Part shown: positions 15,508-18,500 of the stretch, piece after piece
Position numbering within the stretch: the stretch's first letter is position 1
How the letters are laid out: each line of letters opens with the position of its first letter
Source: a virus
Reading direction: 5' to 3' (one strand)
Virus record (IMG/VR): IMGVR_UViG_3300029913_000003
Span: 64,001 to 128,000 of that record
DNA: 64,000 nucleotides
The notes under the pieces: model-generated
The model's input: only the letters and a program-made list of their open reading frames with translations
The model's database searches: none
Told to the model about the DNA's origin: nothing
Translations under genes and position numbers: made by a program

Positions 15508-15711
15508 ATGGGATTCAATAAAAGATTTATATCAAAAGATTCACTTAGAAACATTGCAAATTTAGATGATTATTTAAGTTTTTTTAATTATTTTAAAAGT
15601 GATGTAGTATTATTTGAAGATACATTCTCTCTTAATATTATGAAAGATTTAAAAAAATATAATATTACTGATAAATATGAAATATTAAATATAATGAATA
15701 AGTGCAAATGA
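15508..15711 (+). CDS. Small hypothetical protein
   Basis: 67-aa ORF. Its stop overlaps the start of the first Family B gene. Confidence 0.35.
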   Translation: MGFNKRFISKDSLRNIANLDDYLSFFNYFKSDVVLFEDTFSLNIMKDLKKYNITDKYEILNIMNKCK

Positions 15712-15923
15712 AATATTTATGCAAAAAAACATACTCAAAAGAAATTATAGCTGGAAATTTTTATGATTATTATTTAACATCTACTAAAAATTATGTTAAA
15801 ATTGAAGAGTTATATTTCGTTGCTAATAATAATATGTTATCAGAGCCAAAAATTTATAAATATTTTTATACCGAAACAGAAATACGAAAAATAAAATTGG
15901 AAAAATTGAAAGAATTTAAATAA
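15708..15923 (+). CDS. Family B tagged protein (N-term MKYLCKK, C-term RKIKLEKLKEFK)
   Basis: Shares both terminal motifs with ORFs 15957, 16177, 16415 and 18288. Confidence 0.5.
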   Translation: MKYLCKKTYSKEIIAGNFYDYYLTSTKNYVKIEELYFVANNNMLSEPKIYKYFYTETEIRKIKLEKLKEFK

Positions 15924-15929
15924 TTTATT

Positions 15930-15937
15930 GTATCTTT
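15930..15937 (+). promoter_or_regulatory. -7 box TATCTTTG
   Basis: Context aatttattgtatctttg is identical to the copy at 18257-18273. Lies 19 nt upstream of the ATG at 15957. Confidence 0.45.
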
Positions 15938-15956
15938 GTTTCAAATAAGATAATTT

Positions 15957-16193
15957 ATGAGATATCTATGTAAAAAATATTATATTGATTTTATTGTAGG
16001 AGAATATTATTATTCTGATAATATATCATATAGAAATATTAACTATAATTATAAATATATTTTAATTAATAGCACTAAATTTATTTTAGATGATGATGAC
16101 ACTAGAATAGATCCAAAATTATATGAATATTTTAGTAATATTCAAGAACTACGAAAACTTAAATTAAAAAAATTAGATGAAATATCTATGTAA
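15957..16193 (+). CDS. Family B tagged protein
   Basis: MRYLCKKYY ... ELRKLKLKKLDEISM. Its stop overlaps the next start by 17 nt. Confidence 0.55.
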   Translation: MRYLCKKYYIDFIVGEYYYSDNISYRNINYNYKYILINSTKFILDDDDTRIDPKLYEYFSNIQELRKLKLKKLDEISM

Positions 16194-16431
16194 AAAAGCA
16201 TATAATGAAAATTTTATTGTAGGAAAGTATTATTATTCTGATAATAATATTCATTCTGATAATATGTCATATAGAAATATTAACTATAATTATAAATATA
16301 TTTTAATTAATAGCACTAAATTTATTTTAGATAATAACACTATAATAGATCCAAAATTATATGAATATTTTAGTAATATTCAAGAACTACGAAAACTTAA
16401 ATTAAAAAAGTTATATGAAATATCTATGTAA
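16177..16431 (+). CDS. Family B tagged protein (recent tandem duplicate of 15957)
   Basis: Near-identical to the previous gene at DNA level across about 200 nt. Confidence 0.55.
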   Translation: MKYLCKKAYNENFIVGKYYYSDNNIHSDNMSYRNINYNYKYILINSTKFILDNNTIIDPKLYEYFSNIQELRKLKLKKLYEISM

Positions 16432-16624
16432 AAAATCATATCCAGATTTTATTGTAGGAAAATATTATTATAGTGAGAACTATGATTATGAAGGTTTTAT
16501 AATAATAAATCAACATATGTTTTTTGACTTTCCTGAAATTAAAACAGGAAATATTCATGACTATTTTGAAACAATGCCAGAAATTAGAAGAAAAAAGCTA
16601 GCAAAATTACAAGAATTCAAATAA
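16415..16624 (+). CDS. Family B tagged protein
   Basis: MKYLCKKSY ... RRKKLAKLQEFK. Confidence 0.55.
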   Translation: MKYLCKKSYPDFIVGKYYYSENYDYEGFIIINQHMFFDFPEIKTGNIHDYFETMPEIRRKKLAKLQEFK

Positions 16625-16678
16625 TTTAAACATTCGTTTATTTTTTGTATATAATACAAATTTAAATCGGTTTTTTAT

Positions 16679-18124
16679 TTAATAATTTATCAATGATGTT
16701 GTAGTTAATGTCAACCATATTTTTTCTTTATCAGTATCAAATAATACTTTATTATTTTTTTCTAAATAATTATGAAAATCTTCACTTTCTATAATTTCAA
16801 TAAATGAGTCAACATTTTTTTTATCCATAACAACAGATAATCCAGATAATATTAACGTAGGAGATTTCATTATTTTATAATGAATTTTGCCCTTTATAAA
16901 TGTAATAGGTAATATTATCTGAATCTCATTTTCATTCAGTTCTTTTAATAAGCCTTGTTTTCTACCGTATCCGTACCATGCATCATATTTAGATAATTTA
17001 GTAATATTACCATTATCTCTTTTATTTAATTCATATTTATTATCTAATAGATATTTATATGCTAACGGAAAATCTTCAATTAAAATATCTTTAGTTATAA
17101 TTTTATTATTAATATAAGGATATATGAACCAATAATCTTTTTTAGTAGTTGATTTATATGCCTTTTTACAAATATTTTTTTCTATTTTAATATTAGAATC
17201 ATTTTTATAAACATAATTATCATCAGAATAATCAAATTTGTAAATTTTATCTCTAAGTGTTGCTATTCCGCCATTTGCATATTTAATTATATTTTTTAAA
17301 TTATTTGATGTCTCTTGTTTAAACCAATTACAATTTTTCTTACTTAATATCTGTGAAACTGATTCTGTTTCATATTCAAAAGTATCATTAATTATATCAT
17401 TACAAATTATTATACATGTATAAGCTGAAATATTATCCCAAATTTTATTATTTTTATTATCATATATTTTTAATAATCTATTATTTATAATTTCTCTTAA
17501 TATTTCTCCTGTTTTATTTATTAAAAATGAATTAGGTATAATAAATCCTACTTTCTTACTAATTTTTAATGATTTTTCAATAAATGCATAATATAAATCT
17601 ATATTTCCTTTTTTAATAGTTTCAAAATTTAATTCTTTTAATTTATTAACATAATCATTTTCTAAATTTTGAATTCTTACATATGGAGGATTTCCAAATA
17701 TGATATCAAATTTCATGTCAACAAATAAAAAATCACTATTTTGTATATTTACTAATAATAATTGATTATTATATCCTAATACATTAAAATATCTATTTAA
17801 TAATTCTTTTAAAATATTTATAAAATTAATATCGATATCATAACAATATAATCTATTTTCAACAAAAAATATCATATCATTTAATTCGACATTTTGTTTT
17901 CTAAAATATTCTAAAAGACTAAACACAAAAGAACCTTTACCAACACTTGGTTCACAAATAATATCTGTTATTTTTGGCTCTAAATATTCAATTATTTGTT
18001 CACATACTATACTTTTTGTAAATACAACTCCTTGTTTTTTTATTAATTCAATATCATTTGAATCAAAATTATTACTTTCATTTATTATTTCACTTATTAT
18101 TTCACTTATTTCATTTTCATTCAT
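16679..18124 (-). CDS. N6-adenine DNA methyltransferase (gamma-class, Eco57I/HsdM-like)
   Basis: Motif IV FGNPPYVRI. AdoMet-binding region VVFTKSIVCEQIIEYL...EPSVGKGSF. Confidence 0.75.
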   Translation of the reverse strand: MNENEISEIISEIINESNNFDSNDIELIKKQGVVFTKSIVCEQIIEYLEPKITDIICEPSVGKGSFVFSLLEYFRKQNVELNDMIFFVENRLYCYDIDINFINILKELLNRYFNVLGYNNQLLLVNIQNSDFLFVDMKFDIIFGNPPYVRIQNLENDYVNKLKELNFETIKKGNIDLYYAFIEKSLKISKKVGFIIPNSFLINKTGEILREIINNRLLKIYDNKNNKIWDNISAYTCIIICNDIINDTFEYETESVSQILSKKNCNWFKQETSNNLKNIIKYANGGIATLRDKIYKFDYSDDNYVYKNDSNIKIEKNICKKAYKSTTKKDYWFIYPYINNKIITKDILIEDFPLAYKYLLDNKYELNKRDNGNITKLSKYDAWYGYGRKQGLLKELNENEIQIILPITFIKGKIHYKIMKSPTLILSGLSVVMDKKNVDSFIEIIESEDFHNYLEKNNKVLFDTDKEKIWLTLTTTSLINY

Positions 18125-18265
18125 TCATGTTAATTATTTTTATCTATTTAGTATATTTTCAACATTTTGTTTATATATTTAATATGAATTTGTTAATATA
18201 TTTTACATCGTAATAATATTTATAATAATAATTTATAAAAAAGTCATATTTTTAAAAATTTATTG

Positions 18266-18273
18266 TATCTTTG
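18266..18273 (+). promoter_or_regulatory. -7 box TATCTTTG (direct repeat of 15930 context)
   Basis: aatttattgtatctttg lies 15 nt upstream of the ATG at 18288. Confidence 0.45.
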
Positions 18274-18287
18274 TAAAAAAGATTAAT

Positions 18288-18500
18288 ATGAAATATCTAT
18301 GTAAAAAGACATATTTATCATATTTTATATTTGGTGAATATTATGAAAGTGAATTAGGTAGAGATAATACTATAAACATGATCATTGATAGTAACTCATG
18401 GATACATTTTAAGTTAGATAAAAATTCAAAGTTATATGAGTATTTTTATGATGAAAATCAAATTAGAAAAATGAAATTAAAAAAATTAAAAATATTTTAA
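18288..18500 (+). CDS. Family B tagged protein
   Basis: MKYLCKKTY ... IRKMKLKKLKIF. Confidence 0.55.
   Translation: MKYLCKKTYLSYFIFGEYYESELGRDNTINMIIDSNSWIHFKLDKNSKLYEYFYDENQIRKMKLKKLKIF

What the first reader, a model, noticed from the sequence alone, without database searches (positions are those of the whole stretch)
15702..18500. Second tagged family (MKYLCKK...RKLKLKKL) flanks a methyltransferase bounded by direct-repeat promoters
Seen:
- Five small ORFs share the N-terminus M(K/R)YLCKK.Y and a C-terminal ..LRKLKLKKL..(EISM/EFK) tail, with 17-nt stop/start overlaps.
- 15957 and 16177 are near-identical over about 200 nt.
- The identical 17-nt element aatttattgtatctttg (-7 box TATCTTTG) occurs at 15921-15937 and 18257-18273.
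- That pair brackets four family genes plus a convergent N6-adenine methyltransferase (16679-18124, minus strand).
- A similar K-L-K-K-L tail ends unrelated small proteins next to the other two methyltransferases (40778, 41809, 42761), and also 32435, 33550, 34686 and 39239.

Inference: the tail is a second portable C-terminal tag. The methyltransferase may have inserted into, or be mobilised with, a Family B array.
Basis: partly seen in the sequence, partly recalled or inferred. Interest (0 to 1): 0.6.

Follow-up and report, generated by a model that had tools for sequence, protein, structure and literature searches.

The report
Shared C-terminal helix tag, huge phage
A tandem array of tiny genes in an uncultivated, very AT-rich huge phage belongs to a large undescribed protein family, and its short basic C-terminal helix (φ-R-K-x-K-L-x-K-L) also ends many unrelated proteins, so it looks like a portable address or docking label; the methyltransferase inside the array is an ordinary accessory-gene insertion.

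Summary
Five paralogous 69-84 aa genes (M[KR]YLCKK...[IL]R[KR]xKLxKL) flank a convergent N6-adenine methyltransferase.

**The tail is not low-complexity noise.**
- R[KR]xK[LI]xx[LI] occurs 21 times in 123 called genes. Nineteen hits lie 9-16 residues from the C-terminus, against 0.1 expected.
- The invariant Arg uses five codons, so selection acts on the protein.
- Orthologues in related phages keep the tail.
- In another family (32435), long homologues carry the tail and short ones lack it.

**Family B is broad and undescribed.** It has at least 459 representatives. The predicted fold is a small SH3-like barrel plus a C-terminal helix. It is absent from Pfam, PHROGs, deposited phage genomes and 185,579 bacterial/archaeal genomes. 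One relative carries a 44-gene array.

**The methyltransferase is a presence/absence difference.** The unit (methyltransferase + divergent promoter + fifth gene) is present in two lineages and absent in two.

**The 17-nt repeats are not cassette ends.** They are two copies of the phage's general TATCTTTG promoter.

**Function is inferred only.** The most likely role is a docking helix for a common partner.

The parts
15508..15711 (+). 67-aa leader gene of the operon. It overlaps B1 by 4 nt (ATGA) and is conserved at the same place in all relatives.
15708..15923 (+). Family B1, 71 aa. Orthologues in L001 (55% identity) and L005 (70%).
15922..15938 (+). Internal promoter-like element AATTTATTGTATCTTTG (Bacteroidota-type -7 box TATCTTTG), 18 nt upstream of the B2 ATG. 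The 22-nt TAAATAATTTATTGTATCTTTG is identical at the orthologous site in L001 and L005.
15957..16193 (+). Family B2, 78 aa. Recent tandem duplicate of B3.
16177..16431 (+). Family B3, 84 aa. 17-nt overlap with both B2 and B4.
16415..16624 (+). Family B4, 69 aa. Orthologue of L005 b2 (68%) and L001 b4 (58%), which directly abut the 229/230-aa gene in those phages.
16679..18124 (-). Orphan gamma-class N6-adenine DNA methyltransferase, 481 aa (Eco57I/N6_Mtase, NPPY motif), convergent with B4. It is the variable accessory gene.
18125..18287 (.). Divergent intergenic region between the methyltransferase and B5, conserved in L012 and L013. It holds the second promoter copy at 18257-18273, 14 nt upstream of the B5 ATG.
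18288..18500 (+). Family B5, 70 aa. Orthologue of L012 b5 (52%). Part of the indel unit together with the methyltransferase.
18502..19191 (+). Conserved 229-aa Cys-rich (zinc-ribbon-like) gene that ends the operon in all relatives.
33550..33828 (+). Sixth, divergent member of the same family (E 5e-13 against the broad family profile), with tail ERKKKLEKL.
32435..32833 (+). Unrelated alpha/beta core plus one long C-terminal helix that carries the tail (FRKKKLIKL). Short homologues lack this extension.
39239..43024 (+). Island of tail-bearing genes (39239, 39486, 40333, 40778, 41809, 42553, 42761) interleaved with methyltransferase 41049-41816 and ending just upstream of methyltransferase 43017-43838. 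The pair 41049 + 41809 is absent in L010.
9627..10237 (+). Two further tail-bearing genes (9627-9917 and 9914-10237). The tails are kept in the L001 and L005 orthologues.
34686..35021 (+). Tail-bearing gene (FRKYKLLKLKEL) with no co-directional downstream gene. The tail is kept in the L010 orthologue.
33312..33575 (+). Tail-bearing gene (FLRKEKINEI).
25014..25370 (-). Tail-bearing gene (ERKFKLNEL). The tail is kept in L005 and L027.
45373..45681 (-). Tail-bearing gene (MRKYKLENI). The tail is kept in L010.
60304..60906 (+). 200-aa tail-bearing gene (LRKRKINKLNQ).

Best explanation
**What it is.** The window comes from an uncultivated huge phage. Its own contig is 346 kb at about 22% GC, and it encodes a gp32-like SSB and a GIY-YIG endonuclease. 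Its promoters are of the Bacteroidota type.

**Family B.** This is the local tandem array of a large, undescribed family of small proteins. Each has an SH3-like beta-barrel of about 50 aa (family consensus K-x-G-D-K-L-L-C-K-K ... G-K-Y-Y) followed by a conserved helix, Y-F-Y-T-E-K-E-L-R-K-x-K-L-E-K-L.

**How the array evolves (shown).** It changes by duplication, loss and recombination. Copy number is 2, 4, 5 or 5 in four lineages, and B2/B3 are 94% identical.

**How it is probably expressed (inferred).** It is read as a polycistronic unit with coupled, overlapping starts from TATCTTTG -7 promoters.

**The tail (shown).** The helix motif is selected at the protein level and is modular. It ends at least 21 of 123 proteins in the window, including proteins with unrelated cores. 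In one such family the tail is an appended long helix that other homologues lack.

**What the tail does (inferred).** It most likely acts as a common docking helix that brings many different accessory proteins to one shared partner, either a protein receptor or a nucleic acid. In this it would work like a dockerin or a cargo-loading peptide.

**The methyltransferase (shown).** It is an orphan accessory gene. Together with its divergent promoter region and B5 it forms a presence/absence unit inside the array.

**Role of the second promoter (inferred).** It keeps B5 and the conserved 229-aa gene transcribed downstream of the convergent insertion.

**The 17-nt repeats (shown).** They are two instances of the phage's general promoter, not ends of a mobile element.
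For: **Tail is real and positional**
- Position-specific enrichment against shuffles.
- Five Arg codons at the invariant position in the window (AGA/CGA/CGT/CGC/CGG) and in the L023 array.
- Tails are kept in orthologues at 45-70% identity.
- In five related loci, 24 of 24 hits are C-terminal, and there are none in the unrelated phage LR756501. The same holds in eight more contigs.

**Family is broad and undescribed**
- 459 representatives at E<=1e-3, all 67-150 aa and matching end to end; consensus.
- No Pfam or PHROG family and no source name.
- No tblastn hit in 50,697 deposited phage genomes.
- 0 pattern hits in 596 Gb of bacterial and archaeal genomes, against 8 IMG/VR contigs.

**Structure**
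- The AlphaFold2 (AF2) structure prediction has pLDDT 85: beta strands plus helix 54-67, which is the tail.
- Only generic SH3-like matches were found.

**Portability**
- In the 32435 family, long forms carry the tail and short forms lack it. The extension is one confident helix, 106-130.
- The L023 array of 44 genes includes non-family and transmembrane bodies with the tail.
- 50864 has the SH3-like half but the other family's termini.

**Synteny and the indel:**

**Promoter is general:**
Against: - No experiment or partner prediction supports docking, and the receptor is unidentified.
- The helix is confidently modelled as part of the fold. It could therefore be mainly structural, or a self-association element.
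- The tail can be internal (12293-12832, P0015, P0034, P0214), so it is not strictly a C-terminal signal.
- AF2 coordinates could not be inspected, so it is unknown whether the helix packs on the barrel or projects from it.
- The direction of the methyltransferase event (gain or loss) is not resolved, because the flanks give conflicting similarity orders.
- The host assignment rests only on promoter motifs.
Confidence: 0.5

Rival explanations
1. The K/L-rich tails are a by-product of AT-rich coding (AAA/TTA codons) and have no function.
For: The genome is about 22% GC. AAA and TTA are the dominant Lys and Leu codons.
Against: - Shuffles that keep each tail's own composition give 0.11 hits against 19 observed.
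- 19 of 21 hits lie 9-16 aa from the C-terminus.
- The invariant Arg is encoded by CGN as well as AGA codons.
- The motif is conserved in orthologues and in all related loci examined.
Confidence: 0.02
2. The conserved unit acts as RNA or DNA, not as protein. The 3' ends of these genes would form a translation-initiation or coupling region for the overlapping downstream gene, or a recombination site between cassettes.
For: - The tail-coding stretch lies 15-45 nt upstream of the next, often overlapping, start codon.
- Residues after the tail are visibly dictated by the downstream gene: EISM* here, and G-R-R ends in L023, which could be read as a Shine-Dalgarno-like sequence. That last reading is my interpretation.
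Against: - Arg, Leu and Ile positions are kept through synonymous and cross-family codon changes.
- Genes with no co-directional downstream gene (B4, 34686, 45373) keep the tail.
- The motif also occurs internally.
- AF2 models it as a confident helix.
Confidence: 0.06
3. All tail-bearing proteins are very divergent homologues of one domain. The helix is simply its last structural element and no common partner exists.
For: - In Family B the helix is an integral, high-pLDDT part of the model.
- 33550 was recognised as a member only with a broader profile, so other members may be hidden.
Against: - The 32435 core is a different alpha/beta fold whose short homologues lack the helix.
- Transmembrane proteins carry the tail.
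- The broad profile finds no similarity in most tail carriers beyond the tail itself.
Confidence: 0.17
4. The tail is a sorting signal for packaging into the virion and co-injection (by analogy with the T4 capsid-targeting sequence or encapsulin cargo peptides), or a timed-degradation tag (by analogy with the MuA-type basic ClpX signal).
For: - A terminal peptide is shared by hypervariable small proteins in plastic loci of a phage with T4-like replication genes.
- The genes sit beside methyltransferases, in islands typical of anti-restriction functions: 5 of 6 neighbour slots, P about 0.003.
- The RRKK-like basic core resembles the MuA C-terminal signal (my own knowledge).
Against: - At least 17% of genes is a very large share for virion cargo.
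- Transmembrane carriers are unlikely to be packaged.
- The distance to the C-terminus varies from 8 to 17 aa and the motif can be internal. This argues against a degradation tag that needs the free C-terminus.
- No prohead protease site pattern is consistent across the tails (read directly from the sequences).
Confidence: 0.15
5. The two 17-nt promoter repeats are the ends of a mobile regulatory cassette (like PeSL in T4-type phages) that moved the methyltransferase.
For: - An exact 18-nt direct repeat lies 2.3 kb apart and flanks the methyltransferase.
- PeSL-mediated shuffling is documented in T4-type phages (PMC2839356, PMC4122927).
Against: - The indel boundaries lie at the B4 end and the start of the 229-aa gene, not at the repeats.
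- Copy 1 is present in relatives without the methyltransferase.
- The box is a general promoter, seen upstream of at least 7 gene starts.
- No associated stem-loop was seen next to the repeats, and the one hairpin tested in the locus (between B4 and the methyltransferase) is not significant (z -0.78).
- No variant contig shows the predicted B1-promoter-B5 deletion.
Confidence: 0.05
6. The tail is an amphipathic membrane-targeting helix, as at the C-terminus of MinD or FtsA.
For: It is a short C-terminal helix rich in K/R and L.
Against: The helical hydrophobic moment is lower than in shuffles (0.18 against 0.37) and mean hydrophobicity is negative.
Confidence: 0.03

Closest known systems
T4 capsid-targeting sequence on internal proteins (my own knowledge; not tested here)
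   Same: A short terminal peptide is shared by otherwise unrelated, fast-evolving small proteins encoded in plastic loci of a large phage that has T4-like replication genes.
   Different: - The T4 signal is N-terminal and is cleaved by the prohead protease. This one is C-terminal (rarely internal), helical and unrelated in sequence.
- It is carried by about 17% of genes, including membrane proteins.
- Packaging has not been shown.
Dockerin modules and encapsulin cargo-loading peptides (my own knowledge)
   Same: A small conserved terminal module is appended to many different proteins, and homologues exist with and without it.
   Different: - There is no sequence or fold relationship.
- No receptor (cohesin or shell) has been identified.
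PeSL mobile regulatory cassettes of T4-type phages (PMC2839356, PMC4122927)
   Same: Repeated promoter-containing motifs lie in hyperplastic regions full of small ORFans, and accessory genes come and go between close relatives.
   Different: - The repeat here is only 18 nt.
- It has no associated stem-loop.
- It does not coincide with the indel ends.
Lineage-specific expansions of small domains in jumbo phages, e.g. about 35 zinc-ribbon copies in Bacillus phage G (PMC7824862)
   Same: A tiny domain is massively amplified within a giant phage genome, and its function is unknown.
   Different: - The fold here is different: SH3-like plus a helix.
- The conserved helix is also found on non-homologous proteins.
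SH3-like small beta-barrels with a C-terminal helix (Sso7d/Sac7d, chromo/Tudor-like, KOW; my own knowledge)
   Same: The predicted topology and size match, and the C-terminal helix is lysine-rich.
   Different: - There is no sequence relationship.
- The bodies are neutral to acidic.
Orphan phage N6-adenine methyltransferases (Eco57I/N6_Mtase family)
   Same: The Pfam domains and the NPPY motif are present and no nuclease partner is adjacent. A homologue exists in another huge phage.
   Different: Nothing unusual, apart from its position inside the array and an IS607-like insertion in one strain variant.

Membership tests
PeSL-type mobile regulatory cassette | Composite motif: an early promoter plus an adjacent stem-loop/terminator | tested here: not met
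   A promoter box is present, but no stem-loop lies next to either copy. No terminator-like site was found in 15300-19300. The hairpin between B4 and the methyltransferase has z -0.78.
PeSL-type mobile regulatory cassette | Motif copies coincide with the insertion/deletion breakpoints between close relatives | tested here: not met
   The breakpoints are at the B4 3' end and the start of the 229-aa gene. Copy 1 is present in genomes that lack the methyltransferase.
Bacteroidota-type promoter | -7 box TAnnTTTG a short distance upstream of genes | tested here: met
   - TATCTTTG lies 14 and 18 nt upstream of the B5 and B2 ATGs.
- 7 of 14 copies lie 4-42 nt upstream of same-strand starts in intergenic DNA.
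- TTGTAnnTTTG occurs 14 times against 2.3 expected.
Bacteroidota-type promoter | -33 element TTTG at the proper spacing, and a mapped transcription start | tested here: inconclusive
   No clear TTTG is visible at about -33 in either copy (sequence). Transcription starts cannot be mapped with these tools.
N6-adenine DNA methyltransferase (gamma class, Eco57I-like) | Pfam N6_Mtase/Eco57I domains above the curated cut-off, plus the NPPY catalytic motif | tested here: met
   Eco57I scores 74.2 bits (cut-off 25.3) and N6_Mtase 36.7 bits (cut-off 20.4). GNPPYV is present in the translation.
SH3-like small beta-barrel fold | Five-stranded barrel topology with a significant structural match | tested here: inconclusive
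   [not shown]
C-terminal degradation tag (ssrA-like or MuA-like ClpX signal) | The motif sits at the extreme C-terminus and depends on the free end | tested here: not met
   The core lies 8-17 aa from the end, followed by variable residues. Internal copies occur in 12293, P0015, P0034 and P0214.
Amphipathic membrane-targeting helix (MinD/FtsA type) | High helical hydrophobic moment | tested here: not met
   Mean hydrophobic moment is 0.18 against 0.37 for shuffles.
T4-type capsid-targeting sequence | N-terminal peptide removed by the prohead protease; the protein is found in the capsid | tested here: not met
   The location is C-terminal. Cleavage and packaging cannot be tested here.
Known curated protein families (Pfam, PHROGs) | Significant profile match | tested here: not met
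   No hit was found for window members or for consensus-like members.

The most novel reading that the evidence does not exclude
The φ-R-K-x-K-L-x-K-L helix is a phage-encoded address label. The second tag of this genome, MKYIKTFE...NKFN[LI], may be another. Together they mark roughly half of the accessory proteome of a clade of huge, probably Bacteroidota-infecting phages. The label would recruit dozens of unrelated small proteins to one receptor or compartment, for example the capsid interior for co-injection or a replication or defence-evasion hub. That would amount to a proteome-wide sorting code in a virus of bacteria.
Probability: 0.3. Interest if true: 0.8.

Novelty: new variant of a known kind. 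Interest (0 to 1): 0.62.

Why it matters
Huge phages carry hundreds of small genes of unknown function, and no organising principle is known for them. Here a short, protein-level, transferable terminal motif marks about one gene in six. A second motif marks almost one in three. The same motif recurs across many uncultivated phage genomes, in arrays of up to 44 genes.

If the motif is a docking or sorting signal, three things follow:
- It gives a direct handle for finding the receptor, by peptide pull-down or in-silico complex screening.
- It allows a large part of the 'dark' proteome of these phages to be classified by destination.
- It could be reused as a targeting tag.

Even if the helix is only structural, the family fills a gap in current databases. 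It has at least 459 sequence clusters and is absent from Pfam, PHROGs, deposited phage genomes and cellular genomes.

The methyltransferase part of the finding is ordinary accessory-gene turnover.

Tried and rejected
- **Stop-codon recoding.** This was tested because the nearest records are huge phages. Reading through TAG or TGA did not fill the ORF-free 3.9 kb or lengthen ORFs much.
- **Sigma-70 promoter and terminator scans.** These were uninformative in 20% GC DNA: 57 promoter-like sites against 51.6 expected, and 0 terminators.
- **Bidirectional terminator hairpin between B4 and the methyltransferase.** Not significant (z -0.78).
- **Frameshift fusion of consecutive Family B genes at the A-AAA-AAG / A-AAA-AAA runs in the tails.** Rejected, because a TAG lies immediately upstream of the B3 ATG in its frame and the frame offset does not fit a -1 shift.
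- **Lipoprotein or signal-peptide reading of MKYLC.** Rejected, because five residues are too few for a signal peptide.
- **Promoter-to-promoter deletion as the origin of the L005 arrangement.** Rejected, because L005 b2 is the orthologue of B4, not B5.
- **Methyltransferase relatives in IMG/VR by peptide patterns.** None found.
- **Literature searches.** No precedent was found for such a tag or family.
- **Fold searches in PDB and BFVD.** Only generic SH3-like or uncharacterised hits were returned.

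
Full report
**Setting**

The window is about 22% GC. It is densely packed with small genes that often overlap. It carries two tRNA-Gln genes and a GOLLD RNA. It encodes a gp32-like single-strand DNA-binding protein and a GIY-YIG/NUMOD3 endonuclease.

The only similar deposited records are metagenomic 'uncultured phage' genomes of 462-735 kb. 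Exact copies of its proteins occur on contigs of up to 346 kb. This is therefore a huge, uncultivated phage. Standard code 11 fits.

**The observation**

Five ORFs share the N-terminus M[KR]YLCKK and a tail [IL]R[KR]xKLxKL. They are 15708-15923 (B1), 15957-16193 (B2), 16177-16431 (B3), 16415-16624 (B4) and 18288-18500 (B5).

- The first starts at ATG 15708, as its orthologues do, not at the upstream GTG.
- B2/B3 and B3/B4 overlap by 17 nt. The bases ATGAAATATCTATGTAA read EISM-stop in one frame and MKYLCK in the next.
- B2 and B3 are 94.4% identical over 234 ungapped nt, so they are a recent tandem duplication.
- The 17-mer AATTTATTGTATCTTTG occurs exactly twice, at 15922-15938 and 18257-18273. 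Three family genes and the methyltransferase lie between the copies, not four.
- 16679-18124 (-) is an N6-adenine methyltransferase: Eco57I 1.7e-20, N6_Mtase 3.9e-9, GNPPYV motif.
- The N-terminal motif is protein-level too. B1 encodes Y-L-C as TAT TTA TGC, whereas the other four use TAT CTA TGT.

**Is the tail more than AT-rich coding?**

Yes.
- I called 123 genes. R[KR]xK[LI]xx[LI] occurs 21 times, and 19 of these lie 9-16 residues from the C-terminus.
- Shuffling each protein gives 0.02 tail hits. Shuffling only the last 25 residues, which keeps tail composition, gives 0.11, with a maximum of 2.
- The invariant Arg is encoded by AGA, CGA, CGT, CGC and CGG, and Leu/Ile by five codons. The same codon spread is seen in a distant array. 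Selection therefore acts on the peptide, not on the DNA or RNA.
- Three carriers have no co-directional downstream gene and still keep the tail.
- The helical hydrophobic moment is lower than in shuffles (0.18 against 0.37), so this is not an amphipathic membrane helix.
- The protein bodies are neutral to acidic. The basic charge sits in the tail.

**Conservation in relatives**

- In a related 330-kb contig (L010), orthologues at 45-70% identity keep the tail. Genes without a window counterpart carry it too.
- In L001, L005, L010 and L012, 24 of 24 motif hits are C-terminal. A segment of the unrelated huge phage LR756501 has none.
- Among ten further loci examined, nine carry C-terminal tail hits, and internal hits are rare.

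**What Family B is**

- A word-indexed search found only 15 relatives.
- An exhaustive profile search found 459 representatives at E<=1e-3. All are 67-150 aa and match end to end.
- The consensus is MK-GDKLLCKK...F-VGKYYEI...DYFYTEKELRKLKLEKLNE. The window genes are a branch with a shortened N-terminus, and 33550-33828 is a sixth member (E 5e-13).
- None has a source name. No Pfam or PHROG family matches.
- The consensus has no tblastn hit in 50,697 deposited phage genomes.
- A degenerate DNA pattern for YFYTxxEφRKφKL has 0 hits in 596 Gb of bacterial and archaeal species genomes and 8 in IMG/VR.
- The AlphaFold2 (AF2) structure prediction has pLDDT 85. It shows four to five strands and a C-terminal helix (residues 54-67) that is the tail.
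- One relative (L023/L024) carries a roughly 12-kb array of 44 consecutive small genes. Thirty hit the family profile at E<=0.01. Most of the others also end in RKxKL[DE]x[IL], including two proteins with apparent hydrophobic transmembrane stretches, read by eye from the translations.

**Portability**

- The protein 32435-32833 has 131 homologues.
- Forms of 128-160 aa end in ...QLxFIxxMKxx[YF]RKxK[LI]xK[LI]N, 11-16 residues from the end.
- Forms of 83-112 aa stop right after the conserved core and have no tail.
- AF2 models the core as residues 14-98, followed by one long confident helix, 106-130.
- The tail is therefore an appended module on an unrelated fold.
- Conversely, 50864-51133 has the SH3-like half of the family but the termini of the other tagged family. 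12293-12832 has the motif near its N-terminus.
- P0015, P0034 and P0214 show internal copies. This argues against a signal that needs the free C-terminus or the stop codon.

**The methyltransferase and the repeats**

Gene orders in four lineages:

| Lineage | Gene order |
|---|---|
| Window | 67aa-B1-[P]-B2-B3-B4-<MTase-[P]-B5-229aa |
| L001 | 67aa-b1-[P]-b2-b3-b4-230aa |
| L005 | 67aa-b1-[P]-b2-229aa |
| L012 | 67aa-b1-b2-b3-250aa-<MTase-[P]-b4-b5-230aa |

- B4 is orthologous to the last family gene of L001 and L005, which abuts the 229/230-aa gene. B5 is orthologous to L012 b5.
- The variable unit is therefore methyltransferase + divergent intergenic region + B5. It is shared at 83% nt identity with L012.
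- The flanks give conflicting similarity orders, so gain versus loss is open.
- The closest methyltransferase outside this clade (46.7% identity) lies in LR756501 among unrelated genes.
- A 99.4% identical strain variant has an IS607-like serine recombinase gene inserted in the methyltransferase.
- The first promoter copy is conserved as a 22-mer at the orthologous site in L001 and L005, which have no methyltransferase.
- TATCTTTG occurs 14 times against 6.5 expected. Seven copies lie 4-42 nt upstream of same-strand gene starts in intergenic DNA. TTGTAnnTTTG occurs 14 times against 2.3 expected.
- The repeats are therefore two instances of the general Bacteroidota-type promoter of this phage. 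They are not cassette ends. A PeSL-like mechanism (PMC2839356, PMC4122927) fails two defining tests.
- By inference, the second copy restores transcription of B5 and the conserved 229-aa gene downstream of a convergent insertion.

**Association with methyltransferases**

Five of the six genes flanking the three methyltransferases carry the tail (P about 0.003 for random placement). The pair 41049 (methyltransferase) + 41809 (tail gene) is absent in L010.

I read this as co-location in plastic accessory islands, not as a functional link. The LR756501 homologue has no such neighbours.

**Mechanism**

*Shown:*
- The array changes by birth and death of copies.
- The tail is under protein-level selection.
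- The tail is modular.
- The promoter box is general.
- The methyltransferase unit is an indel.

*Inferred:* the helix is a docking element that brings many different small proteins to a common partner. I rank the alternatives as follows:
- docking to a protein receptor or nucleic acid (best, 0.5);
- a purely structural terminal helix of hidden homologues (0.17);
- a virion-packaging or degradation signal (0.15);
- an RNA-level element (0.06);
- a PeSL-like cassette (0.05);
- a membrane helix (0.03);
- a composition artefact (0.02).

**Novelty**

Terminal tags on variable phage proteins are known in principle (the T4 capsid-targeting sequence; my own knowledge). So are expansions of tiny domains in jumbo phages (PMC7824862). 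This family, this motif and its proteome-wide spread are not described in any library or paper I could search.

Noticed in passing
window 3185-7085: About 3.9 kb has no ORF of 60 aa or more in any frame, even with TAG or TGA read through. It contains a full-length GOLLD RNA (6569-6990, +, 278.9 bits). Upstream of that lie tandem repeats: 3353-3870 (period 98-109 nt, each unit carrying a TTTTTGTAA[C/T]TTTG promoter-like box) and 5448-5773 (period 93 nt, 3.5 copies, GC-richer). This may be an array of small RNA genes.
   Followed up: partly
window, 37 genes, e.g. 7086-9180 (-), 19224-22530 (-), 28303-31050 (-), 35137-38580 (-), 50864-53710 (+): A first 'tagged' family: 37 of 123 genes end in [KN][FY]N[LIMV], and 30 of these also start MKY[ILV]K-FE. 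Lengths run from 81 to 460 aa, so the ends are conserved around very variable middles. Both tags end in K-φ-N, so they may be related variants. The N-terminus recalls the T4 capsid-targeting sequence MKTYQEFIAE (recalled from memory, not tested).
   Followed up: partly
L020 (ENA ERZ27254066 k141_650068), equivalent to window ~17431: A strain variant that is 99.4% identical over 1.2 kb has an IS607-like gene inserted in the methyltransferase after about codon 229, truncating it. The inserted gene encodes a 203-aa MerR-type HTH plus serine recombinase.
   Followed up: partly
L023 7810-19845 (ENA ERZ27249621 k141_502386) and L024: A roughly 12-kb tandem array of 44 co-directional small genes has mostly 14- or 17-nt overlaps. 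Thirty are family members, and most of the rest carry the same tail. An IS605 OrfB/TnpB gene lies nearby.
   Followed up: partly
window 41049-42177, compared with L010 9947-10572: A second methyltransferase indel. The N6_N4 methyltransferase 41049-41816 and the overlapping tail-bearing gene 41809-42177 are absent from the related 330-kb phage. The small genes between 42203 and the Dam methyltransferase are replaced there by a different tail-bearing gene.
   Followed up: partly
window 50864-51133 and 12293-12832: Module shuffling. 50864 combines the SH3-like N-terminal half of the Family B superfamily (E 4e-6) with the termini of the other family. 12293 (179 aa) carries [16 protein letters not shown] near its N-terminus.
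   Followed up: partly
window 18266-18285 compared with 16183-16202: The promoter copy upstream of B5 (TATCTTTGTAAAAAAGATTA) matches the 5' coding sequence of B3 (TATCTATGTAAAAAAGCATA) at 17 of 20 positions (counted by eye); (D10) lists it at 90% identity to the B2 5' end. The promoter may derive from a degraded family gene start, or the gene starts may act as weak internal promoters.
   Followed up: no
window 11214-15424 (-): A conserved block lies upstream of the array in all relatives. It comprises an NAD-dependent epimerase, an HD-domain protein, a microbial PARG-like macro-domain protein (13786-14592) and a 256-aa protein of unknown function. Relatives also encode several ankyrin-repeat proteins.
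   Followed up: no
window 44144-46481: A protein with a CarboxypepD_reg-like domain is followed by a 268-aa protein that ends in an aromatic residue, as outer-membrane beta-barrels do. Together with the TAnnTTTG promoters, these are hints of a Bacteroidota host.
   Followed up: no
P0259 (83 aa): A tail-less short homologue of 32435 is annotated by NCBI as coming from a Patescibacteria MAG. It occurs on 20 contigs of up to 221 kb. It may be a mis-binned phage contig.
   Followed up: no
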